Shown here: positions 11,743 through 43,507 of the stretch, piece by piece
Layout: the number at the start of each line of letters is the position of its first letter
Numbering within the stretch: position 1 is the first letter of the stretch
Source of the DNA: a virus
Taxonomy: Duplodnaviria > Caudoviricetes
Strand: one strand, 5' to 3'
IMG/VR virus record: IMGVR_UViG_3300020508_000005
Location: 1 to 64,000 of that record
DNA: 64,000 nucleotides
Notes under the pieces: generated by a model
Database searches by the model: none
Seen by the model: the letters and a program-made list of their open reading frames with translations, nothing else
Told to the model about the DNA's origin: nothing
Position numbers and translations under genes: made by a program

Positions 11743-12694
11743 CTGAATTCATGGCTTCACAAAATTTTCTGGGATCTATTATACCGAATCCTCCATAAAA
11801 CTTTGCATCATGTAAATCTATATTGTTCAAGGCAACGGTATACCTTCTTAACATTTCTCTGCACTCGTCAGACGTTCTAATTTGAAACCCAGAGTTTCCT
11901 TTCTTGCTGTAGGCAATCATTAGGGCGGCTACACCTACGGCAAATGGACAAGCCATAGAAGTTCCAGATAAGGTTGCATACCAATCATCTGGAACTGTAG
12001 AAAATATGTCTACGCCGGGTGCCATGAAATCTAAGTTCTGGCCGGTATTAGAAAAGTCTGCTCTAGTAAAATTTTCATTTATAGCACCGACTGCAATTGA
12101 TTCAGGATAATTTGCAGGATAGAAAATCTCTTCCGTTTTACCTGCATTTCCGGCAGCACAAAATGTTATTGTGCCTTTAGATTCAGCGTATTGAATGGCT
12201 TTTCTAACTTGTTGTACTTTTATTGGTGCCCCAAGACTCATGGTAATTAAATCAACACCTTGATCAGCAGCCCATTTAATCCCTTGACACACACTTAGCA
12301 TGTTGCCAATTCCTTTTTTGTCAAGCACTTTTACAGGTCGCACTTTGGCTTTAGGGCACACACCCACCATGCCAATATCATTGTCTTTGGCCACCAAAAT
12401 ACCAGTAATGTGCGTTCCGTGTCCATTTTCATCTATTGGTAACTTTCCTGTCTCAACAAAATTAATTCCATCAAGTAGATTCTCTTTCAGATCTGGGTGA
12501 TCCAAATCACAACCAGTGTCCAATACCGCTATGACAACATCTTCGCCTTTAGTTTTCTCCCAAGTTTTGGGCAAATCGAAAGCAGTTATCCCCCACCCAG
12601 ATTTTTGTTTAGCTTCTTGAATAGACAAACAATCTGTACGTTCAAATGGCAATAACTTACATTTATACTTGGAATCAGAATCCTTCTTAGCCAT
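11735..12694 (-). CDS. Subtilisin-like S8 serine peptidase
   Basis: VLDTG, NGHGTH, AAGN, GTSMACP catalytic motifs. Confidence 0.93.
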   Translation of the reverse strand: MAKKDSDSKYKCKLLPFERTDCLSIQEAKQKSGWGITAFDLPKTWEKTKGEDVVIAVLDTGCDLDHPDLKENLLDGINFVETGKLPIDENGHGTHITGILVAKDNDIGMVGVCPKAKVRPVKVLDKKGIGNMLSVCQGIKWAADQGVDLITMSLGAPIKVQQVRKAIQYAESKGTITFCAAGNAGKTEEIFYPANYPESIAVGAINENFTRADFSNTGQNLDFMAPGVDIFSTVPDDWYATLSGTSMACPFAVGVAALMIAYSKKGNSGFQIRTSDECREMLRRYTVALNNIDLHDAKFYGGFGIIDPRKFCEAMNSVK

Positions 12695-23421: not shown

Positions 23422-25023
23422 ATGTCGAACGAAAATGAACAATTATTAGAAAACGCAAATCAAATCATGGAAGAAGCTGTGGAAAAAGCAGGTGAACTGC
23501 TTATGAGCAAGCCACAGATTGCAGAAATAATTCTTAAACAATGCCTTAAATGCGATCCAGAGCACAATGCTGCCTTACAACTTTTGGGTTTGTGTAAACA
23601 CAGAATGGGTGAAAATGCTGAAGCAATTGAAATTATTCAAACGGTTCTAGATCTTGATCCGTCGAACGCAGATAACTGGAACAATTTAGGACTTGCTTAT
23701 GGTGGCCTTGGAAATGAAGAAAAGGCTATAGAGTGTATCAAAAAAGCTCTTGAAATTAATCCTAATCATTTTCTTTATCAAAATAATTTGGGGCTTCATT
23801 ATCGAGCAAGTGGCGATTATGAAAATGCAATTGCTTCTTTGCGTCAAGCTCTGAAATCTGAAGAACGACCACAACTTTGGGTAAATCTTGGTGGTATGTA
23901 CGGTGAGCTTTGCAATTTAGAAGAAGCTGAAAAATGCTTTGAAAGTGCTATCAAACTAGACCCAGAGTACGCTGCTGCGTATGTTGACCTTGCATTTGTT
24001 TATCATTTAAGAGGCGATTGGAAAAAAGGCTTTGCTGCCAATGAATGGCGATTCTTCTATTATCCCCAAATGAAATATTATCATAGTTCTTTCGACATGC
24101 AAAAACTTTGGGATGGCAAAGCCGATCTTAATGGTAAGCGTGTTTTGATTTATGGAGAGCAAGGACTTGGAGATATTATTCAATTTGTGCGATTCACAAA
24201 ATTTTTAAAAGAAAAAGGTGCTCATGTAATTGTTCATTGTCCTACAAACTTGGACGCAATAATTAGAAGAGTGGAAGGCGTTGACGAAACAACAAATAAA
24301 GATATTTACAATAAAACAGATGAAGTTTTTCCTGAATACGATTATCAGTTTTCAATGATGAGTTTCCCGTATCTTTTGAATTTAGATACCATCAGTGGAA
24401 AGCCTTATGTTAAACCTGCTACAACGGCTTTCAAAGATTATATGCAAAAAGAATATGGAAAAACTTTAAACGTTGGTATTGTTTGGGCAGGAAATCCTGC
24501 TCATCCTCACGATCAAAGACGCTCAATTCCATTAGAGAACTTTAGACTATTGCACGATACTCCGGGCGTGAAGTTGTTTAGTTTACAAATTGAAAGCTCA
24601 AAAAGACAATATGGAGTAACTTATCGTAACCTTGAAAGTGTCGCAAAACCAGATGATACTTGTATCAATAAATTTATACCTCAGCACGGTATAGTAGATT
24701 ACAGCGAAAACTGTGAAGATATGAAAATCGTAGATCTTACTAAAATGATACAATCATTTGATGACACAGCAACTATTTTAGCAGGTTTAGATCTCGTTGT
24801 TTGTTGCGATACCGCCACCGCACATTTAGCAGGTGCTATGGGCGTTCCTGTTTGGGTTGCTATCCCTTATAATCCTGATTGGCGTTGGGAACTTAAGGGC
24901 GATACCACATATTGGTACGACAGTATGAAGTTGTATCGCCAGCCTGAAAGAGATGATTGGAAATCTGTATTTGAAAGGATGCAAAAAGATCTAAATGAAA
25001 CTGTACTACAGAATCAGCGATAA
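23422..25023 (+). CDS. TPR-repeat glycosyltransferase (GT9-like C-terminus)
   Basis: Several TPRs; EQGLGDIIQFVRF, GIVWAGNP, DTATAHLAGAMG. Confidence 0.9.
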   Translation: MSNENEQLLENANQIMEEAVEKAGELLMSKPQIAEIILKQCLKCDPEHNAALQLLGLCKHRMGENAEAIEIIQTVLDLDPSNADNWNNLGLAYGGLGNEEKAIECIKKALEINPNHFLYQNNLGLHYRASGDYENAIASLRQALKSEERPQLWVNLGGMYGELCNLEEAEKCFESAIKLDPEYAAAYVDLAFVYHLRGDWKKGFAANEWRFFYYPQMKYYHSSFDMQKLWDGKADLNGKRVLIYGEQGLGDIIQFVRFTKFLKEKGAHVIVHCPTNLDAIIRRVEGVDETTNKDIYNKTDEVFPEYDYQFSMMSFPYLLNLDTISGKPYVKPATTAFKDYMQKEYGKTLNVGIVWAGNPAHPHDQRRSIPLENFRLLHDTPGVKLFSLQIESSKRQYGVTYRNLESVAKPDDTCINKFIPQHGIVDYSENCEDMKIVDLTKMIQSFDDTATILAGLDLVVCCDTATAHLAGAMGVPVWVAIPYNPDWRWELKGDTTYWYDSMKLYRQPERDDWKSVFERMQKDLNETVLQNQR

Positions 25024-28371: not shown

Positions 28372-28779
28372 ATGGAAGCTGTGATTTTAGATAAGGGCCT
28401 GTTATATTTGGGGATCAATTCTAATCGATCAAGAGAAATAGCTCAACAAAATGCAGGATCGACACTGCACTCTAATATTACCCTAGAATGCTTATCTGAT
28501 CTGCTCGGGTTTTCAGACGCAAAATTAGAGTCAAACCAAGGTTTTGAGTCCGAAGCTGCAAAAAAATTGCTCGAAAAACTAAAAAGCCTTGGATTCGATA
28601 ACTCAACTGACATACAATCTTCTCACGGAGAAAAAACCTGCGTAGAAGTCAAATCCCTCGGATTGCGAGGCATGAAGACTGTTTACGATAGCGTGATTGC
28701 AATGAATGAATTGATGCGGCAAACCGCTGCAAGCCAAGAAGAGATTGCGGAGAACGAAGATGTCAAGTTTGATTGTTGA
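28372..28779 (+). CDS. Hypothetical protein heading the RNA-repair/NAD block
   Basis: GAGG SD; overlaps the RNA ligase start. Confidence 0.65.
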   Translation: MEAVILDKGLLYLGINSNRSREIAQQNAGSTLHSNITLECLSDLLGFSDAKLESNQGFESEAAKKLLEKLKSLGFDNSTDIQSSHGEKTCVEVKSLGLRGMKTVYDSVIAMNELMRQTAASQEEIAENEDVKFDC

Positions 28780-29878
28780 GGTCTGCGAAGTAGAAGAAAT
28801 TGCACCAATTGAAGGTGCTGATCGAATCGAACGAGTACGAGTGAAAAATTGGTGGTGTGTTTCTGGCAAAGGAACATATAGCACCGGCGACAAAGTTGTG
28901 TTTGTGCCTCCAGATGCAGTAATTAGCGAAGAACTGGCTAATCGCTGGGGAATTGCAAAATACTGTCCCAAATTGCCGCAATCAATGTGTGGCGAAAACG
29001 AAATTAAGTATCGGATCAAAGCCGCTCGATTTCGCGGAACGCCATCGTTTGGAACAATTCAAAGCTTGGACGATCAATCATGGCCTGTTGGTCATAATGT
29101 TAAAGAGCATTATGGCATAACCAAATATGAGCCACCTGTTAAGGCTTTAGATGGCGATGCTGCTGCTGAAATTCCAGCTTTCCATGCATATTCTAGCATT
29201 GAAAATATTGGGAACTTTCCTAATATTTTTCAAGAGGAAGAAGAAGTTATCGTGACTGAAAAAATTCACGGAACAAACTGTCGCTTAGGGTATGTGCTTG
29301 CTGGACAAACACCGGACGGCGATCAAAAGTGGGAAATAGTTGCTGGATCACACTCTGTGCGTCGAAAAGAATTTGACGCCAAAGGACATCGCAGTAAGTA
29401 TTGGATGCCACTGAAGCAAGATGGTTCATGTCCAATCAGCAATATGCTTGTGCAAGTTTTTGTTGCTGAAAAGGCAAGTCGATCTGTTGTGCTGTTTGGA
29501 GAAATTTTTGGACAAGGTATTCAAGACATGGATTACGGCCAAAAGACTCCAAGTTTTAGAGCGTTTGATTTGGCGGTTGATGGCAAGTATTTAGATTGGG
29601 ATAAAACTTGTGAGTACTTAAAGAGGCACGACATACCTGTTGTTCCTCTTTTGTATCGAGGGCCATTTTCCATGGAAGTTTTGGATCAACATGTTGATGG
29701 TCAAACCACAATTTGTGATGCTAACAATATCAAAACGCCATTCAAAGGCCGAGAAGGAATTGTTATCAAGCCGACCCAAGAAAGATACAATGACAAACTT
29801 TATGGTCGGACAATTTTAAAATATGTATCCGCCGACTATCACGATAGACGGAATCCAAACCCTAGCGAAGATCACTAA
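28760..29878 (+). CDS. ATP-dependent RNA ligase, DRB0094/Rnl5 family
   Basis: N-terminal OB-like IEGADRIE; motif I TEKIHGTN; FGEIFG, FRAFDL, EGIVIK, LKYVS. Confidence 0.9.
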   Translation: MSSLIVEVCEVEEIAPIEGADRIERVRVKNWWCVSGKGTYSTGDKVVFVPPDAVISEELANRWGIAKYCPKLPQSMCGENEIKYRIKAARFRGTPSFGTIQSLDDQSWPVGHNVKEHYGITKYEPPVKALDGDAAAEIPAFHAYSSIENIGNFPNIFQEEEEVIVTEKIHGTNCRLGYVLAGQTPDGDQKWEIVAGSHSVRRKEFDAKGHRSKYWMPLKQDGSCPISNMLVQVFVAEKASRSVVLFGEIFGQGIQDMDYGQKTPSFRAFDLAVDGKYLDWDKTCEYLKRHDIPVVPLLYRGPFSMEVLDQHVDGQTTICDANNIKTPFKGREGIVIKPTQERYNDKLYGRTILKYVSADYHDRRNPNPSEDH

Positions 29879-29900
29879 CAATTATTTTGAGGATAAAAAC

Positions 29901-30737
29901 ATGGCAGACAAAACAGCTTTGGGCGATAGAATGAAATCGTATGAAGGACGATTTACCAATCAATCTTTTATGCCTATGGCACCTGTTGTTGCAAGATTAG
30001 ATGGTCGATCTTTTCACACATTTACGCGTGGCTTGAAAAGACCATATGATCCACGTTTGTCAAAGCTTATGCTTGAAACAACCAAGTTTTTGGTCGGCGA
30101 AACAGATGCTCGTTGCGGCTACACTCAAAGCGATGAGATTAGTCTGGTTTGGCTCGCAGAAGAGTGGGAAACAAAAATTTTCTTTGGTGGGAAGCTACAA
30201 AAAATGGTTTCTGTTCTTGCTGCTTTGGCTTCAAGTTTTTTTAACAAAAATTTGCCAAAGTATTTGCCAGAAAAGGCTGAAAGCTTTCCTGTGTTTGATT
30301 GCAGAGTTTTTCAAGTCCCTAACGAGAAAGAAGCAGTGAACTGTTTTGTTTGGAGACAACAAGATGCGACAAGAAACTCTATTCAGATGGCAGCACGATG
30401 CTTTTATTCTGATAAAGAATGTTTCAAAAAGAATTCTTCGGCCCTTCAAGAAATGTTGCACGCCAAAGGAGTGAATTGGAGTGGGTATCCTGAATTTTTC
30501 AAACGTGGCACCTTTGTGCGAAGAAAAGTTTTGACTCGGGAATATAGTAAAGAAGAATTAGATTCTTTGCCGCCCAAACACCACGCTCGAACGAATCCCG
30601 AACTACAAATTAAACGCACTATTATTCAAGAAGAATCTTTGTGTGCACTCACAAAGCTTCCTAATAAAGAAGCTGTTTTGCTGCATGGTGCCGAACCATG
30701 TCGATTACCTACAGATTTAAACTTGTATAGTTCCTGA
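29901..30737 (+). CDS. Thg1-like tRNA(His) guanylyltransferase / 3'-5' polymerase
   Basis: DRMKSYE, RLDGRSFH, YTQSDEIS, FDCR, WRQQDATRNS. Confidence 0.93.
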   Translation: MADKTALGDRMKSYEGRFTNQSFMPMAPVVARLDGRSFHTFTRGLKRPYDPRLSKLMLETTKFLVGETDARCGYTQSDEISLVWLAEEWETKIFFGGKLQKMVSVLAALASSFFNKNLPKYLPEKAESFPVFDCRVFQVPNEKEAVNCFVWRQQDATRNSIQMAARCFYSDKECFKKNSSALQEMLHAKGVNWSGYPEFFKRGTFVRRKVLTREYSKEELDSLPPKHHARTNPELQIKRTIIQEESLCALTKLPNKEAVLLHGAEPCRLPTDLNLYSS

Positions 30738-30857
30738 AGTTTTGGCATGTGTTTAAAACACTGTTGTCTATAAATCAAGAAATCAGAATAAGATGTTTAC
30801 AGAATTTTTTGATTTCTTGTATTTTGAGTTTTGTACCCTTTTTGGAAACAACACCTT

Positions 30858-30930
30858 GCATCCTTAGCTCAATTGGTAGAGTGGTGAACTCTAAATTCAC
30901 AGGTTGTGGGTTCGAGCCCCACAGGATGCA
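30858..30930 (+). tRNA. Amber-suppressor tRNA, anticodon CUA (CCA not encoded)
   Basis: Acceptor GCATCCT/AGGATGC + A73; D-arm GCTC-AATTGGTA-GAGT; anticodon stem GTGAA/TTCAC with loop CT-CTA-AA; T-arm GTGGG-TTCGAGC-CCCAC. Confidence 0.9.
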
Positions 30931-30964
30931 TTTTCATTTTAAGAAATTAGTTTAAAGGCACAAC

Positions 30965-32128
30965 ATGTCAATCATTCGTTCAATTCTTGACACCGATCTT
31001 TACAAGTTGACCATGCAAAAAGCGGTGCTCGATTATCGGCAAAATGTTCCAGTGCGATATGTGTTCAACAATCGTCGTCCAGAAGGAAAGTTCAATAATA
31101 GTTTTGCTTCTGCTTTTGAAGCAGAACTAGATAAAATGAAAGATCTCACTATGAGTGATGATCAATGTAAATGGTTGCGTGAAACTTTGCCATGGATTGG
31201 AGAAGATTACATTCAGTATTTGAAAAATTACCGTTTTGATCCAAATGAAGTGAACTGGGCCATCATTAACGGAGAACTTCAACTTAGTGTTGTTGGAACT
31301 TGGGAACGTACAATCCTATGGGAAGTGCCATTAATGGCATTGATTTCAGAATTGTTTTTCAAGCATTGCGACCTATTATGGGACACCGAACTTAAAAAAC
31401 AAGCGGAGAAAATAGAGGAAAAAGGCCGTACTCTTGATGGCCATACTTTTACAGATTTTGGCACACGTCGCCGACGTGGTTATGAAATTCAAGATTTGGT
31501 TGTTGGAATATTGAAAAAGTTTTCAACATTCAATGGCACCAGTAATGTACACTTAGCCCACAAACACAGCTTATCTCCTATAGGAACTATGGCTCATGAA
31601 TGGATTATGGGCATATCGGCCTTAGAGGGCCTTCGTCACGCCAATAGTTCAGCCTTAAATATTTGGAGTCGAATATTTGGTGGGAGATTAGGAATAGCTC
31701 TCACAGACACTTTTGGTTCAGAAGCCTTTTTTAGGGATTTCAATCCAAAACTGGCACGTCTATATGATGGAGTAAGGCATGATTCAAGTGATCCATTTGA
31801 ATTTGTTGAAAAAACAATAAGTGCATACCGCTCTCTTGGAATAGAACCAAACACGAAAAAGATTGTTTTTAGTGACTCTTTAAATCCACAAAAATGCTTG
31901 GATATTGCAGATTACTGTGCAGGAAGAATCCAAGCAGTCTCTGGTATTGGAACCAATTTTACTAACGATTTTGCAGAATCACCCGCTTTAAATATGGTCA
32001 TTAAGCTTGCTAGTTGTAACAATGTACCGGTTGTGAAATTAAGTGACTCACCAACTAAAGCGATTGGTGATCGTGATGCATTGCGTGTGGCACGTTGGAC
32101 ATTTTTCAATACTCCTTTAGATCAATAG
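30965..32128 (+). CDS. pncB: Nicotinate phosphoribosyltransferase
   Basis: LDTDLYKLTM, DFGTRRR, GTSNV, GTMAHEW, ALTDTFG, GVRHDS, FSDSL, GIGT, KLSD. Confidence 0.93.
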   Translation: MSIIRSILDTDLYKLTMQKAVLDYRQNVPVRYVFNNRRPEGKFNNSFASAFEAELDKMKDLTMSDDQCKWLRETLPWIGEDYIQYLKNYRFDPNEVNWAIINGELQLSVVGTWERTILWEVPLMALISELFFKHCDLLWDTELKKQAEKIEEKGRTLDGHTFTDFGTRRRRGYEIQDLVVGILKKFSTFNGTSNVHLAHKHSLSPIGTMAHEWIMGISALEGLRHANSSALNIWSRIFGGRLGIALTDTFGSEAFFRDFNPKLARLYDGVRHDSSDPFEFVEKTISAYRSLGIEPNTKKIVFSDSLNPQKCLDIADYCAGRIQAVSGIGTNFTNDFAESPALNMVIKLASCNNVPVVKLSDSPTKAIGDRDALRVARWTFFNTPLDQ

Positions 32129-32137
32129 GCTACAATT

Positions 32138-34150
32138 ATGAATAATTTGGGATTTGTTAGGATTGCTGTTTGCTCTCCAAAAATATCGGTTGGAAACCCA
32201 AGGAATAATTATTCTCAAATCGCCTCTCTATTAGATCAAAATGCAGATGCTGATATTGTAGTTTTTCCCGAATTATGCGTCACGGGATATACTTGTGGCG
32301 ACTTGTTTCGACAAGAGTATTTGCTTCAATCTGCCAAAGACATAATCCATGGAATTTCTGCTTATGCAACAAAGAAAAAACATCAATTGGTCTTTGTCGG
32401 TGCACCCTACGTTGTAAATAACGAACTTTTTAATTGTGCCTTCGCCATCAACAATGGAAAAGTAATTGGAATTGTTCCTAAGACTAACATTCCTAATTAT
32501 TCTGAATTCTATGAAAGTCGTTGGTTTCGTTCAGCAACCGGAGACGAACCTAGCGAAGTTTCATTTACAGACTATAACTATAAAGTGCCTTTTGGCATTG
32601 ATTTACTTTTTAAGTTTCGAGATCTGTCTGTGTTTGCAGAAATTTGCGAAGATCTTTGGATGCCAATCCCTCCTAGTAGTTTTGCGGCAATACATGGAGC
32701 TAATGTGTTAGTCAATCTGTCAGCTTCAAATGAAACTGTTGGTAAAAACGAATATCGTGTTGATCTTGTGAAAAACCAGTCCGCAAGATGCATCGCAGCT
32801 TATGCCTACGCATCTGCTGGACCATCAGAATCTACAAGTGATCTTGTTTTTGGTGGACACTGCATTGTTGCTGAGAATGGAAAAGTTCTTGCCCAAACTC
32901 AAAGAGTAGGAGAAAACAAACAATCATCATTTGAAAATGGTTGGTACACGAGTGTTGATGTTGATATAGAGAAATTACAAAATGAACGCCGTACAATCAC
33001 TAGTTTTGGAGATTCAACTCGCACAATCAATAAAAAGTTCCGAAATGTAGAGTTTCTTTTGAAAATAGAAAGCTCTCATGATTCCTTGCCAACACTCAAA
33101 AGGCAAGTTGATGGCAATCCATTCGTACCTGAAAACGCTATAGAAAAAACCAAGCGTTGTGCTGAGGTTTTTGAAATCCAGTGTGCTGGATTGCATAAAA
33201 GATTAGAGGCTTTGAATTTTGGAAATATTTACATTGGTGTTTCGGGCGGGTTAGATTCCACTTTGGCACTACTCGTTGCAGCAAAAACTTATAAAATGGC
33301 CGGTGTTGATGTCGCAAAAATTCATGGAATAACTTTGCCCGGTTTTGGCACCACTAGCAAAACCAAAAACAACGCTTTGGCTTTAATGTCAGCGTTGGGA
33401 ATATCTCAAGAGACTATCGACATCCGTCCAATTTGCCTTGAAACCTTCAAAGCATTGAAACACAAATCATTTGGGGCGATTGATTATGACATCACTCTTG
33501 AAGAGTTTGAAAAAGCATTAAAGTTAGTGCCAAAGTCTCAGAGATATGATTTGGTTTTTGAAAATGTACAAGCCAGAGAAAGAACTAAGCTTTTAATGAG
33601 TCGCGGATTTGTTTTGGGAACAGGGGATCTGTCTGAAGCCGCCTTGGGTTGGTGCACTTACAATGGCGACCACATGAGCATGTATAATGTTAATTGTTCA
33701 GTGCCAAAAACTTTGGTGCGTTCAGTAGTTGATTTCGTAGCTAGAAGAGATAATAAAATGGACGATCTCTTCGCAGTGCTTACAGATATTCTTGACACAA
33801 CAATTTCACCAGAGCTATTACCTCCTAACGAGTCTGGTGAAATTGAACAGTCTACCGAAGATGTGCTTGGTCCATATGAATTGCACGATTTTTATCTTGC
33901 AAACTTTGTAAAGAATGGATTTTCTCCTGAAAAGATTTTGTACCTTTCTGAATATGCAAAATTTTCTAAGACATATTCAACAGATGTGCGTGAAAAAACG
34001 TTGAAAACATTTTTAAGCCGGTTTTTTAGTCAACAATATAAACGAAATTGTGTGCCCGATGGGCCTAAAGTTGGTTCTGTGAGCTTATCTCCTCGTGGAG
34101 ATTGGCGAATGCCTTCTGATGCCGATCCTAGCATGTGGTTCAAGCAATGA
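32138..34150 (+). CDS. nadE: Glutamine-dependent NAD+ synthetase
   Basis: Nitrilase domain (FPEL, PK, EICEDLW) plus SGGLDS, ENVQARER, GTGDLSE, LSPRGDWRMPSD. Confidence 0.95.
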   Translation: MNNLGFVRIAVCSPKISVGNPRNNYSQIASLLDQNADADIVVFPELCVTGYTCGDLFRQEYLLQSAKDIIHGISAYATKKKHQLVFVGAPYVVNNELFNCAFAINNGKVIGIVPKTNIPNYSEFYESRWFRSATGDEPSEVSFTDYNYKVPFGIDLLFKFRDLSVFAEICEDLWMPIPPSSFAAIHGANVLVNLSASNETVGKNEYRVDLVKNQSARCIAAYAYASAGPSESTSDLVFGGHCIVAENGKVLAQTQRVGENKQSSFENGWYTSVDVDIEKLQNERRTITSFGDSTRTINKKFRNVEFLLKIESSHDSLPTLKRQVDGNPFVPENAIEKTKRCAEVFEIQCAGLHKRLEALNFGNIYIGVSGGLDSTLALLVAAKTYKMAGVDVAKIHGITLPGFGTTSKTKNNALALMSALGISQETIDIRPICLETFKALKHKSFGAIDYDITLEEFEKALKLVPKSQRYDLVFENVQARERTKLLMSRGFVLGTGDLSEAALGWCTYNGDHMSMYNVNCSVPKTLVRSVVDFVARRDNKMDDLFAVLTDILDTTISPELLPPNESGEIEQSTEDVLGPYELHDFYLANFVKNGFSPEKILYLSEYAKFSKTYSTDVREKTLKTFLSRFFSQQYKRNCVPDGPKVGSVSLSPRGDWRMPSDADPSMWFKQ

Positions 34151-34731
34151 GAAAAGTAGCTTTATTTGGCGGAGCATTCGACCCTGTTACTTTGGCACAT
34201 CAAATGGTATGCCAAAAAATACACGAAGAAACTGGATGTGAAATATGGCTACTTCCATGTTGGGAACATAAGTTTGGAAAGCAACCTACTCCAGCCTATC
34301 ATAGATGGGCTATGCTTTCCTTGATGTGCATAAATAACCCTTATATCAATCTTTGTTCGTGGGAAATTGATGCACAACACACTGGATCGATGTATGAAAC
34401 TATTCATGGAGTAAAATGCTCGTTCCCAGACGTTGCGTTTCATTTAGTAATTGGAATGGATAACGCAAATGTCATTAAAGAAAAATGGGATCGTGGTGAT
34501 CAGTTGGTTTCACAAAATCCATTTTTAGTAGTTACACGAAAAAACGAAAATTCAACCACTAATTGGTATAACGAGCCTCCCCACAGACTTTTAGAAGTTG
34601 ACAGTGGTATAAGCTCAACTATAATACGTGACGCTGTGGCGAATCAAAAATTTGATGATGCTGCAAAAATGGTCACGAAAAATGTTTGGGATTACATCGT
34701 TAAAAATTCTTTATATGGATTGAAAAAATGA
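34147..34731 (+). CDS. nadD: Nicotinate-nucleotide adenylyltransferase
   Basis: FGGAFDPVTLAH, IGMDN, ISSTIIR; ATGA overlap with nadE. Confidence 0.9.
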   Translation: MRKVALFGGAFDPVTLAHQMVCQKIHEETGCEIWLLPCWEHKFGKQPTPAYHRWAMLSLMCINNPYINLCSWEIDAQHTGSMYETIHGVKCSFPDVAFHLVIGMDNANVIKEKWDRGDQLVSQNPFLVVTRKNENSTTNWYNEPPHRLLEVDSGISSTIIRDAVANQKFDDAAKMVTKNVWDYIVKNSLYGLKK

Positions 34732-35006
34732 AACATCTACTTGGATCATCCCGCAACATACGTCTTGCAGTAAATGATCAAAAAGATAAAATAATTGTCG
34801 AACCAGAAATTGAATGCATTCTTGCTTTGATCGAAAACAATTTTGAATTTGAAGCAACAGATGTTAAATCTGTTCCTAAAATATCTTCATTTCGTTTCGG
34901 TCTTGATTTGGAAGGTGCAAAGCACCTACGAGATTCGCTTGATACTTGGATTGAAGAAGCCGAGTCTTTAAATGGCCGACAATTAGAATTTAAAATTGAA
35001 GAGTGA
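34728..35006 (+). CDS. Hypothetical protein
   Basis: ATGA-coupled to nadD. Confidence 0.65.
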   Translation: MKHLLGSSRNIRLAVNDQKDKIIVEPEIECILALIENNFEFEATDVKSVPKISSFRFGLDLEGAKHLRDSLDTWIEEAESLNGRQLEFKIEE

Positions 35007-35444
35007 TTCAAGATCTTTTAGAATCGACCACTCATTAAAATGAGATATTTTTTTCCGTATCTTGCTGAGATACTTAGATAAATTTTCTTTGAGTTTTGGG
35101 TGTAAATTTAAAGATTTCAAATCTTTGAAGTTCACCCATTTTGCGTCTGTGTGCTCGTGATTAAGTTTTACTGTAAACTGCTTGTCAATTTGATACAAAA
35201 ATGCAGTATAGGGCTTCGTTGTCTGGTCGTTTGTTACTGAATCAAAATTTTCACCCGGCACTTTTTCCAAACCAGTTTCTTCCATCGTTTCTCTAATTGC
35301 AGTTTCTAAATCACTTTCTCCTGATTTAGATTTTCCTCCGGGCAAGCCCCAAGTGTTCGCATTCTTTCCTTCCGAACGCAACAAAAGAAGAATTGACTGT
35401 CCATCCGTGAATAATATTCCTGCTGCTTTTTTTATCTTGCCCAT
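34983..35444 (-). CDS. NUDIX hydrolase
   Basis: GGKSKSGESDLETAIRETMEETG Nudix box. Confidence 0.9.
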   Translation of the reverse strand: MGKIKKAAGILFTDGQSILLLLRSEGKNANTWGLPGGKSKSGESDLETAIRETMEETGLEKVPGENFDSVTNDQTTKPYTAFLYQIDKQFTVKLNHEHTDAKWVNFKDLKSLNLHPKLKENLSKYLSKIRKKISHFNEWSILKDLESLFNFKF

Positions 35445-42265: not shown

Positions 42266-43507
42266 TTACTTAGTTGAAGACATGACAAATTTAATGCCAT
42301 CTTCTAAATGTTTTTGAGCAAATTCTTGAAGATTAGATGGCTTTAAATTTTCGGCACATTCTTTGATTAAATTAATATTCATTAATTTTTGATGTTGTTC
42401 AACAAACCAAGCATTATCAATTGATAGTTCAATTCCAGCCATGACAGTGTTGGCAACTCCGTGAACATTTTGAAGACCTTTAATCTTGCTGTAAATGTAT
42501 TGTTTTTTGCATATTTCAAACAATTCATCGGGAAATCCATTTTCCTTTACTTTATTGAATAGCTTGACAAGTTCTTCTTCTGCTTTTTCGAGATGTTCAT
42601 TGCTTGTCAGCATTGATATAATTGCATGGTTGTTTTCATAGTGACTAAAGCCACTTATTGAAACGCCATAACATAATCCAAGATCATCACGAATATGTTC
42701 GTACAAGTACTTGTTTAATGCATACATGAAAAATGTAGGAACAAATTTTTGTTCAATATTTTCTTTGAGAGAAATCCATTTTTGAACATGGCCGAATGCA
42801 GCTTGTTCAAATCTGCTGGTTTCAAAAGCGTATCTCTTCTCTTCATTCAAAAGAGAATTTAGGCAAGTCCCTGTTTTTTGAACTTGTGGGATTTGTGGTA
42901 AAATTTTATTCACCGCATCCATCACATGTGTGAATTTTAAATTGCCAACAATAATCAAACCCATATTTTGTTGGCCGTACCATTTATTTCGGTATCGATG
43001 CAATTTTTCGGGGCTCATGTCACGAATAGACTGTTCTGTTCCAATGATGGGGTGTGTTTCTGTTGTGCCAAAACATTTTTTAGCTACAAAATTCCAGAAA
43101 AATTCGGTGGGATAATTATCATACATACGCCACTCTTCAATTATAACACTTTTTTCTTTTTCAAATTCTTGCTCAGGAAAGTTCGAATCGAAAACAGCTT
43201 CTTTCAAAAGCATTAAACCTTTTTCGAAGTCTTCATTAAGAGCATCAAAATGATATGTGGTGGCAAAATAGTTTGTGGATGCATTAAAAGATCCAACCAA
43301 AGCTTGATCACGAGAAATTTGGTGTTTATTTTTAAGTGGGGTCCCTTGAAAACAACAGTGCTCAAGAAAGTGAGCAACGCCCCAAGAATCTTGATCCTCT
43401 TGAGCAGAGCCGCAATTAGCGACTAAAATTACCTTGCAAATAGCAGAATCGGGCATTTTGACATGATAAACTGGAATGCCCGAATTACAAACTGAGTAGT
43501 TCAACAT
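42266..43507 (-). CDS. M16 (pitrilysin/insulinase) metallopeptidase
   Basis: GVAHFLEH, NAST, EKEKSVIIEE, IRDDLGLCYG. Confidence 0.92.
   Translation of the reverse strand: MLNYSVCNSGIPVYHVKMPDSAICKVILVANCGSAQEDQDSWGVAHFLEHCCFQGTPLKNKHQISRDQALVGSFNASTNYFATTYHFDALNEDFEKGLMLLKEAVFDSNFPEQEFEKEKSVIIEEWRMYDNYPTEFFWNFVAKKCFGTTETHPIIGTEQSIRDMSPEKLHRYRNKWYGQQNMGLIIVGNLKFTHVMDAVNKILPQIPQVQKTGTCLNSLLNEEKRYAFETSRFEQAAFGHVQKWISLKENIEQKFVPTFFMYALNKYLYEHIRDDLGLCYGVSISGFSHYENNHAIISMLTSNEHLEKAEEELVKLFNKVKENGFPDELFEICKKQYIYSKIKGLQNVHGVANTVMAGIELSIDNAWFVEQHQKLMNINLIKECAENLKPSNLQEFAQKHLEDGIKFVMSSTK

What the first reader, a model, noticed from the sequence alone, without database searches (positions are those of the whole stretch)
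30965..34731. Complete phage-encoded Preiss-Handler NAD+ route (PncB-NadE-NadD): candidate third NAD-reconstitution anti-defence pathway
Seen: three closely spaced genes with recognisable catalytic motifs that convert nicotinate to NaMN, NaAD and NAD+. Known: described phage NAD-reconstitution pathways (NARP1 Adps+Namat; NARP2 Nampt+Nmnat) use the amidated route to counter NAD-depleting defences (Thoeris, SIR2/TIR effectors). Here the PRTase is PncB-type and a 670-aa Gln-dependent NadE is added, so flux goes through deamidated intermediates. Inference: this restores NAD+ via NaMN/NaAD, which may escape defence NADases. No nicotinamidase is in the window, so host PncA or a distal gene is needed.
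Basis: partly seen in the sequence, partly recalled or inferred. Interest (0 to 1): 0.85.

Follow-up and report, generated by a model that had tools for sequence, protein, structure and literature searches.

The report
Megaphage nicotinate-to-NAD+ synthesis operon
A fragment of a very large uncultured phage carries three intact, tightly packed genes that should turn nicotinate into the cofactor NAD+, but such clusters were reported from sequence in other giant phages in 2024 and their proposed role against NAD-destroying bacterial immunity is still untested.

Summary
Window 30965-34731 encodes PncB (ATP-coupled nicotinate phosphoribosyltransferase), a 670-aa two-domain glutamine-dependent NadE, and NadD. 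All are intact with catalytic motifs present. nadE/nadD and nadD/orf92 overlap in ATGA. The block lies in a real phage (tail sheath, baseplate hub, adaptor); the 94-kb record is about 19% complete, implying roughly 500 kb. It is not a host chimera: the gene order recurs in at least six related phage contigs, and the best cellular PncB is only about 46% identical.

- "Third" is out of date, because NARP3 (PnuC+NadR) was published in 2026.
- Phage pncB-nadD-nadE "Preiss-Handler" clusters, and the idea that they counter NAD+ depletion, were published in 2024 (Li et al., Microbiome). Neither has been tested.
- This scan has noted the same kind of cluster on other DNA many times.

No nicotinamidase, PRPP synthetase or NAD-dependent ligase is in the available 94 kb. 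Some relatives lack one of the three genes. That fits boosting of the host's own pathway better than a closed recycling loop.

The amber-read-through PncB-NadE fusion idea is not conserved in relatives.

Verdict: solid new member of a known kind, with low-to-moderate interest.

The parts
30965..32128 (+). pncB: type I, ATP-coupled nicotinate phosphoribosyltransferase (nicotinate + PRPP -> NaMN). Stop codon is TAG.
   Evidence: NF003704 445 bits and TIGR01514 418.6 bits, both over their cut-offs. All best solved-structure matches are NAPRTases, E 1e-81. The phospho-His motif GTMAHEW is conserved.
32138..34150 (+). nadE: two-domain glutamine-dependent NAD+ synthetase (NaAD + ATP + Gln -> NAD+).
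   Evidence: NF002730 816.6 bits, over cut-off 473. Matches M. tuberculosis NadE 3DLA over its full length, E 1.9e-124. The Glu/Lys/Cys triad and the SGGLDS P-loop align.
34147..34731 (+). nadD: nicotinate-mononucleotide adenylyltransferase (NaMN + ATP -> NaAD). The ATG overlaps the nadE stop (ATGA).
   Evidence: Only NadD families hit, but below their cut-offs. The best solved relatives are bacterial NadD enzymes. Motifs GGAFDPVTLAH and ISSTIIR are present. Junction sequence seen.
34728..35006 (+). orf92: small conserved protein of unknown function. Its ATG overlaps the nadD stop (ATGA).
   Evidence: No Pfam, NCBIfam or PHROG family. 27 cluster representatives at E <= 1e-3. A homolog follows nadD only in the closest relative, L001. 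Confident AF2 model, pLDDT 92.5, with only weak COMM-domain-like or levivirus-coat-like fold matches.
30857..30931 (+). tRNA with anticodon CUA (amber suppressor type), 34 nt upstream of pncB. It is a neighbour and is not shown to be part of the pathway.
   Evidence: ARAGORN. Rfam tRNA 70.5 bits. Conserved at the same position in L001 only.
28745..30737 (+). Upstream co-oriented RNA-repair genes: RNA ligase (28745-29878) and a Thg1-like 3'-5' nucleotidyltransferase (29823-30737).
   Evidence: PF09414, and TIGR02306 at 146 bits. PF04446, and phrog_4717 at E 1.5e-82. Syntenic in relatives.
34983..35444 (-). Convergent Nudix hydrolase whose 3' end overlaps orf92. Syntenic in relatives; substrate unknown.
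   Evidence: PF00293. Intact Nudix box, with no NudC or ADP-ribose-pyrophosphatase signature seen.

Best explanation
The block is an auxiliary NAD+ biosynthesis operon of a phage of roughly 500 kb.

The predicted chemistry runs in three steps:
- PncB converts nicotinate plus PRPP to NaMN. The reaction is driven by ATP through a phospho-histidine.
- NadD adenylates NaMN to NaAD.
- The two-domain NadE amidates NaAD to NAD+, using ammonia channelled from glutamine.

The overlapping start and stop codons (ATGA) suggest that nadE, nadD and a small unknown gene are translated as one unit.

All three steps duplicate functions that bacteria normally have. The module therefore most likely raises the infected cell's capacity to make NAD+ from nicotinate. 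That nicotinate could come from the environment or the host, or from nicotinamide through a PncA encoded by the host or by the unsequenced part of the phage. The higher capacity would keep the NAD+ pool up during infection. Buffering against NAD+-depleting defence systems is a plausible benefit, but it is not shown.

Shown: gene identities, intact motifs, phage residence, conservation and purifying selection.
Inferred: substrate preferences, co-expression, and the physiological role.
For: - Family assignments and motifs.
- ATGA overlaps at the nadE/nadD and nadD/orf92 junctions.
- Phage hallmark genes flank the block. The record is a virus record that CheckV puts at 19% complete.
- The same block sits between the RNA-ligase/Thg1 genes and the Nudix/adaptor genes in L001, L002, L004, L005, L006 and L084. 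L006, L004 and L091 are true relatives, with tail sheaths 80%, 66% and about 60% identical.
- The PncB tree places the window with the syntenic phage copies. The best cellular PncB is at most about 46% identical.
- dN is far below dS against L001.
- Relatives that lack one gene fit flux supplementation: L002 has no nadD, L005 has no nadE, and G003 has no pncB in 320 kb.
- Published precedent exists for phage Preiss-Handler clusters (PMC11662467).
Against: - There are no expression, activity or NAD+ measurements.
- NadD scores below its curated family cut-offs, so its preference for NaMN over NMN is assumed.
- Only about a fifth of the genome is available, so partners such as PncA, Prs, transporters or NAD consumers may exist unseen.
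- The host is unknown.
- Location next to RNA-repair genes and a tRNA could indicate a more specific counter-defence role than general supply.
Confidence: 0.75

Rival explanations
1. The operon is a dedicated anti-defence system, a fourth NARP-like pathway. It would be selected specifically to restore NAD+ after cleavage by SIR2, TIR or SEFIR NADase effectors. Its deamidated intermediates would be invisible to those NADases.
For: - NARP1-3 show that phage NAD+ synthesis can defeat NADase defences, and NARP2 and NARP3 are ordinary salvage enzymes.
- Li et al. propose this role for NAD-jumbo phages.
- The module sits in a co-oriented block with RNA ligase, a Thg1-like enzyme and a tRNA. These are typical answers to RNA-targeting defences.
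Against: - NADases release nicotinamide and ADP-ribose. The module uses neither, and no PncA is in the 94-kb record or in the related fragments.
- The product is still NAD+, so it remains a target.
- Each NAD+ costs PRPP, several ATP and a glutamine, in a cell that is being depleted.
- Gene content varies among relatives.
- There is no experimental test anywhere.
Confidence: 0.35
2. The module supplies NAD+ for the phage's own NAD-consuming enzymes, such as an NAD-dependent DNA ligase, ADP-ribosyltransferases or NAD-capping of RNA. On this reading it is not there to maintain the general pool.
For: - Li et al. report many NAD-consuming enzymes in NAD-jumbo phages.
- A Nudix hydrolase of the Ap4A or decapping type lies next to the module and is syntenic in relatives.
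Against: - No NAD-dependent ligase domain (PF01653) is found in the 94-kb record. None is found in five relatives either, one of them 63% complete.
- The Nudix protein has no NAD-specific signature.
- Most of the genome is unseen.
Confidence: 0.15
3. The block is host chromosomal DNA joined to phage sequence by misassembly, or it is a very recent host capture.
For: All three genes are ordinary bacterial housekeeping families.
Against: - Composition is uniform across the block, GC 0.37-0.41.
- Phage genes lie on both sides.
- The same synteny occurs in at least six independent viral contigs.
- Phage copies cluster in the tree, and cellular copies are at most about 46% identical.
- The two best "MAG" hits, L107 and L108, have the phage gene order. 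L108 also carries 11 tRNA genes just upstream. This suggests they are mis-binned phage contigs.
Confidence: 0.02
4. Amber read-through by the adjacent tRNA(CUA) fuses PncB to NadE. The pncB TAG stop is in frame with nadE, three codons upstream of its ATG. Read-through would give a substrate-channelling fusion of about 1061 aa.
For: In the window, pncB ends in TAG. The nadE ATG is in frame nine bases later with no further stop. The tRNA(CUA) lies 34 nt upstream of pncB.
Against: - In L001, which keeps the tRNA(CUA), pncB ends in TAA and nadE is in another frame.
- pncB ends in TAA in all 13 other loci checked (L002, L004, L006, L084, L107, L108 and more distant ones), and the frame is not conserved.
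- The chance of TAG plus the same frame arising by coincidence is about 1 in 9.
Confidence: 0.03

Closest known systems
Preiss-Handler gene clusters of 'NAD-jumbo phages' (e.g. Kuafu_71 pncB-nadD-nadE, Kuafu_19; Li et al. 2024, Microbiome 12:268, PMC11662467)
   Same: A very large phage carries pncB, nadD and nadE clustered together. They are annotated as a complete nicotinate-to-NAD+ route, and the same untested counter-defence idea is attached to them.
   Different: - Here the order is pncB-nadE-nadD and NadE is the 670-aa glutamine-dependent two-domain type.
- The IMG/VR lineage with the published gene order (pncB-nadD, then nadE) has a PncB only about 36% identical. Its NadE is short (243-268 aa in three of the five records) and lacks a glutaminase domain.
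- The present clade is a different phage group and its host is unknown.
- I did not have the Kuafu sequences for a direct comparison.
NARP2 (Nampt + Nmnat; Vibrio phage KVP40 NadV/NatV; Osterman et al. 2024)
   Same: A phage-encoded PRTase plus an adenylyltransferase make NAD+ from a pyridine base, PRPP and ATP.
   Different: - NARP2 uses nicotinamide directly, through NMN, and needs no amidation step.
- Here the PRTase is PncB (nicotinate) and a NadE step is required.
- NARP2 has been shown experimentally to counter NADase defences; this module has not.
NARP3 (PnuC-like transporter + NadR-like enzyme, phage Bas30; Yan et al. 2026, Sci Adv, PMC13464706)
   Same: A phage salvage route rebuilds NAD+ from an external precursor, not from ADP-ribose.
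   Different: - The precursor is different (nicotinamide riboside) and so are the enzymes.
- NARP3 includes a transporter; no transporter is seen here.
- It already occupies the name 'third pathway'.
Bacterial Preiss-Handler pathway (PncA-PncB-NadD-NadE), e.g. M. tuberculosis NadE (3DLA), Pseudomonas PncB (1YIR), Bacillus NadD (1KAM)
   Same: The enzyme families, catalytic residues and predicted chemistry are the same.
   Different: - It is encoded by a phage and lacks PncA in the available sequence.
- The sequences are divergent: at most about 46% identity for PncB and about 48% for NadE against the nearest cellular genes found.
PncB genes of deposited huge phages: Agrobacterium phage Atu_ph07 (490 kb), Sinorhizobium phage Phosso (469 kb), and the huge uncultured-phage records LR756500, LR756501/LR756503 and LR756511
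   Same: These are jumbo or megaphages with an annotated or detectable nicotinate phosphoribosyltransferase.
   Different: - Identity is only 30-46%.
- In Atu_ph07 pncB stands without an adjacent nadE or nadD.
- Gln-dependent NadE was found in only 8 unannotated faecal phage records out of 50,697.

Membership tests
PncB, type I nicotinate phosphoribosyltransferase (TIGR01514 / NF003704) | Whole-protein score over the curated equivalog/subfamily cut-off | tested here: met
   418.6 bits against 269.55, and 445 bits against 379. The NAMPT-type PHROG scores only 50.8 bits.
PncB, type I nicotinate phosphoribosyltransferase (TIGR01514 / NF003704) | Conserved histidine of the ATP-coupled (phospho-His) mechanism, and the N-terminal domain | tested here: met
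   GTMAHEW aligns with solved PncB structures. Identifying this His as the phosphorylation site rests on my own knowledge of Salmonella PncB His219. PF17767 is present.
PncB, type I nicotinate phosphoribosyltransferase (TIGR01514 / NF003704) | Preference for nicotinate over nicotinamide | not testable with these tools
   Needs an enzyme assay.
Glutamine-dependent NAD+ synthetase (NF002730, M. tuberculosis type) | Score over the cut-off and the two-domain architecture | tested here: met
   816.6 bits against 473. CN_hydrolase at residues 8-260 plus NAD_synthase at 348-606. Full-length match to 3DLA.
Glutamine-dependent NAD+ synthetase (NF002730, M. tuberculosis type) | Glutaminase Glu-Lys-Cys triad and the ATP-pyrophosphatase P-loop SGGxDS | tested here: met
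   FPEL, VPK and EICED align to the corresponding 3DLA motifs, and SGGLDS is present. The motifs are conserved in phage relatives.
NadD, nicotinate-nucleotide adenylyltransferase (TIGR00482 and NF000840-type models) | Score over the curated cut-off | tested here: not met
   97.1 bits against 112.45, and all other NadD models are also below their cut-offs. Only NadD-type families and NadD structures are hit. It is a divergent NadD-like enzyme; strict equivalog membership is not shown.
NadD, nicotinate-nucleotide adenylyltransferase (TIGR00482 and NF000840-type models) | Nucleotidyltransferase (H/T)xxH motif and SxTxxR motif | tested here: met
   GGAFDPVTLAH and ISSTIIR.
NadD, nicotinate-nucleotide adenylyltransferase (TIGR00482 and NF000840-type models) | Preference for NaMN over NMN | not testable with these tools
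   Needs an enzyme assay. Inferred only from the presence of NadE in the same operon.
NAD+ reconstitution pathways (NARP1-3) as anti-defence systems | Uses the products of defence NADases (nicotinamide and/or ADP-ribose), or an imported precursor, through phage-encoded steps | tested here: not met
   No nicotinamidase, ADPR-utilising enzyme or Prs-like enzyme is found in the 94-kb record. The caveat is that the record is about 19% complete.
NAD+ reconstitution pathways (NARP1-3) as anti-defence systems | Restores NAD+ and phage growth in cells expressing an NADase defence | not testable with these tools
   Experimental.
'NAD-jumbo phage' with a Preiss-Handler cluster (Li et al. 2024) | pncB, nadD and nadE all encoded and clustered in a phage genome | tested here: met
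'NAD-jumbo phage' with a Preiss-Handler cluster (Li et al. 2024) | Genome larger than 200 kb | tested here: inconclusive
   Only 94 kb is held. A CheckV completeness of 19% implies about 500 kb. Relatives with the same sheath give similar extrapolations: 158 kb at 31% and 320 kb at 63%.

The most novel reading that the evidence does not exclude
The pncB-nadE-nadD operon would be a genuine fourth NAD+-restoring counter-defence route. It would rebuild NAD+ from nicotinate at high flux, independently of the NADase products. NaMN and NaAD would not be substrates of SIR2/TIR/RES effectors, so the phage could outrun depletion, including by defences such as aRES that defeat NARP1. Its placement with RNA ligase, a Thg1-like enzyme and a tRNA would mark a combined 'repair what defences destroy' island.
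Probability: 0.3. Interest if true: 0.6.

Novelty: new member of a known kind. Interest (0 to 1): 0.3.

Why it matters
NAD+ depletion is a widespread bacterial anti-phage strategy, and phage countermeasures (NARP1-3) are an active field. A nicotinate-based route has been noted in giant phages only from sequence. Nobody has shown that it makes NAD+ in an infected cell or defeats an NADase defence.

This locus adds four things:
- A compact, intact and probably translationally coupled example, with the glutamine-dependent NadE.
- Evidence that the module is old and under purifying selection in a clade of phages of about 500 kb.
- Evidence that a second phage lineage assembled the same pathway independently, with a different NadE type.
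- Evidence that relatives can drop single steps.

Together these give clean candidate genes for a direct test. The concept itself is not new.

Tried and rejected
- **Host chimera or misassembly:** rejected on synteny, the tree and composition.
- **PncA, Prs and LigA in the 94-kb record:** none found. PncA was also not found in related fragments G011-G015. A PncA-like gene does exist in G001, but G001 does not share the sheath and is not a relative. A weak isochorismatase-like C-terminus (26.3 bits, cut-off 27) sits upstream of pncB in relative L004; this is inconclusive.
- **NAD riboswitch or other Rfam element near the operon:** none apart from the tRNA.
- **orf92 function:** no family was found. 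The family alignment was too variable for the search for related loci. Two single-protein viral scans found nothing, and there was no hit in five large records. The fold search gave only weak matches.
- **Promoter and terminator scan:** uninformative overall. The one exception is a perfect sigma-70 consensus inside the nadD 3' end.


Full report
**What is there.** Between 30965 and 34731 the + strand carries three ORFs with almost no spacing.

- **pncB (30965-32128).** The 387-aa product passes the curated cut-offs of both NCBIfam PncB models (NF003704 445 against 379 bits; TIGR01514 418.6 against 269.55). It has both Pfam NAPRTase domains. Its six best solved relatives are all nicotinate phosphoribosyltransferases (E down to 1e-81). 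The GTSN and GTMAHEW motifs align. From my own knowledge of Salmonella PncB His219, the His in GTMAHEW is the phospho-histidine of the ATP-coupled enzymes. The PHROG for nicotinamide PRTase scores only 50.8 bits.
- **nadE (32138-34150).** The 670-aa product scores 816.6 bits on NF002730 (cut-off 473). It has CN_hydrolase plus NAD_synthase domains. It aligns end to end with M. tuberculosis glutamine-dependent NadE (3DLA, E 1.9e-124). The glutaminase triad motifs (FPEL, VPK, EICED) and the SGGLDS P-loop are in place.
- **nadD (34147-34731).** This protein hits only NadD families and NadD structures, and it carries GGAFDPVTLAH and ISSTIIR. It scores below every curated cut-off (TIGR00482 97.1 against 112.45). 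It is a divergent NadD-like adenylyltransferase, and its NaMN preference is inferred.
- **Junctions.** The likely nadD start at 34147 overlaps the nadE stop as ATGA. A further 92-codon ORF (34728-35006) overlaps the nadD stop in the same way. This suggests translational coupling.

**Context.** The window is phage.

- A tail sheath (phrog_23, E 4.5e-85), baseplate hub, sheath stabiliser and head-tail adaptor lie within 2-20 kb.
- The genome held is one 94,129-bp IMG/VR virus record with no terminal repeat. CheckV completeness is 19%, which implies about 500 kb.
- Upstream and co-oriented are an RNA ligase, a Thg1-like enzyme and a tRNA with anticodon CUA.
- Downstream and convergent are a Nudix hydrolase with a generic Nudix box and the adaptor gene.
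- No riboswitch or other Rfam element is present apart from the tRNA.

**Not a chimera; an old phage lineage.**

- IMG/VR holds 155 stretches encoding PncB relatives and 20 encoding relatives of this NadE.
- Contigs L001, L002, L003/L004, L005, L006 and L084 carry the NAD genes between the same RNA-ligase/Thg1 and Nudix/orf170/adaptor genes. L087 carries nadE-nadD beside orf170, the adaptor and a sheath 72% identical.
- Tail sheaths of L006, L004 and L091 are 80%, 66% and about 60% identical to the window's.
- The nearest proteins in the 5.8-billion-protein set are unnamed metagenomic PncBs at 55-72% identity. Several lie on contigs of 500-660 kb.
- The best cellular PncBs are at most about 46% identical (Verrucomicrobiota, Melainabacteria). 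The two better "MAG" hits, L107 and L108, have the phage gene order. L108 also has 11 tRNA genes just upstream. Both are probably mis-binned phage.
- In a maximum-likelihood tree the window groups with the syntenic phage copies, and a single origin of that group is not excluded.
- PncB and NadE catalytic motifs are invariant across the clade. Against L001, dN is far below dS: pncB about 0.09 with dS saturated, nadD 0.29.

**Variation among relatives.**

- All three genes occur in the window, L001, L004, L006 and L084.
- L002 has no nadD in 74 kb. L005 has no nadE in 73 kb. G003 (320 kb, 63% complete) has nadE and nadD but no pncB.
- More distant relatives insert a PP2C-type phosphatase between nadE and nadD, and a kinase-like gene after nadD.
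- A second IMG/VR lineage has a PncB only about 36% identical that branches elsewhere in the tree. It includes terminal-repeat-complete genomes of 331 and 467 kb. It carries pncB-nadD followed by a NadE without a glutaminase domain. Phages have therefore assembled this route at least twice.

**Prior knowledge.**

- NARP1 and NARP2 were described in 2024. The preprint does not mention nicotinate, PncB or NadE.
- NARP3, published in August 2026, is PnuC plus NadR. The "third pathway" slot is taken.
- More importantly, Li et al. (Microbiome 2024, PMC11662467) report 174 "NAD-jumbo phages". They state that Kuafu_71 carries a cluster of pncB, nadD and nadE giving the Preiss-Handler pathway. [quoted passage not shown]
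- Among 50,697 deposited phage records, PncB is detectable in 13. These are mostly huge phages and include cultured Atu_ph07 and Phosso. This NadE type is detectable in 8 unannotated faecal contigs.
- The scan's own index shows the same kind of cluster noted on many other genomes, with follow-ups that reached the same closest known. I had found the paper independently.

**How it most likely works.** The enzymology is standard: nicotinate, then NaMN, then NaAD, then NAD+. All three steps duplicate functions bacteria normally have. Relatives tolerate loss of single steps. No nicotinamidase, Prs or ADPR-using enzyme is present in the DNA available. I therefore read the operon as a flux booster for NAD+ supply in the infected cell. 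Protection against NAD+-depleting defences is a plausible but unproven benefit. A need for NAD+ by a phage NAD-dependent ligase is also not supported: no PF01653 domain occurs in this record or in five relatives.

**Side hypotheses.**

- The pncB TAG stop is in frame with nadE, and a tRNA(CUA) lies just upstream. In L001, which keeps the tRNA, pncB ends in TAA and nadE is in another frame. All other loci checked also use TAA. The fusion idea is therefore unlikely.
- orf92 belongs to a small family of proteins of about 90 aa. It folds confidently into a β-sheet plus a C-terminal helix. It has only weak COMM-domain-like or levivirus-coat-like matches, and it accompanies nadD only in L001. Its role is unknown.

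**Limits.** I could therefore obtain neither the genomic contexts of the orf92 family nor any environmental or expression data. About 80% of the genome is unseen.

**Verdict.** This is a new member of a known, sequence-described but experimentally untested kind.

Noticed in passing
window 30857-30931: A tRNA with anticodon CUA (amber suppressor type) lies in a phage whose long genes read open in code 11. It is conserved at the same position upstream of pncB in L001 (7429-7503) but not in the more distant relatives.
   Followed up: partly
window 34728-35006: orf92 overlaps the nadD stop (ATGA). It is a member of a small uncharacterised family of proteins of about 90 aa, with invariant N10, E29 and R56. 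The AF2 model has pLDDT 92.5. The best fold hints are COMM-domain proteins and levivirus coat proteins, at Foldseek E of 0.03 or weaker.
   Followed up: partly
window 34598-34625: A perfect sigma-70 consensus (TTGACA-16-TATAAT) lies inside the 3' end of nadD, about 100 nt upstream of orf92. It could give orf92 its own transcript.
   Followed up: no
L004 11200-12051 and 13331-15217; L006 11384-12376 and 12965-14668; L084 9974-10831 and 11469-13181; L005 9970-10809 and 11629-13347: In more distant relatives a PP2C-type phosphatase sits between nadE and nadD, and a protein of about 570-630 aa with weak protein-kinase similarity follows nadD. The window and L001 lack both.
   Followed up: partly
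L004 6209-7084: A 291-aa ORF just upstream of pncB has a C-terminal isochorismatase/nicotinamidase-like stretch (Pfam 26.3 bits against cut-off 27; NF008623 18.7 bits). It is a possible divergent PncA in a true relative.
   Followed up: partly
L003/L004 about 12056-12649: The NadD-like match in this relative contains two in-frame stops within the tblastn range. The gene may be broken there.
   Followed up: no
L108 345-3325 (contig CALFYV010000090.1, 546 kb, binned as Bacteriovoracaceae) and L107: Contigs filed in bacterial MAGs carry the phage-type pncB-nadE(-nadD) order. L108 also has 11 tRNA genes just upstream. They are probably mis-binned megaphage sequence.
   Followed up: partly
window 28745-30737: An RNA ligase (DRB0094-like, 146 bits, just under cut-off 151) and a Thg1-like 3'-5' nucleotidyltransferase overlap by 56 nt. 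They lie directly upstream of the tRNA and the NAD operon. This is a likely tRNA/RNA repair pair.
   Followed up: no
L112 and L113 (Melainabacteria): In these cellular genomes pncB and a NadE 39-48% identical to the phage's are separated by an intervening gene of 1.3-2 kb. By eye it looks like a ribose-phosphate pyrophosphokinase. I did not scan it.
   Followed up: no
window 42266-43507 (-) and 23422-25023 (+): An M16 (insulinase-type) peptidase and a 533-aa TPR-repeat protein are encoded in the phage.
   Followed up: no
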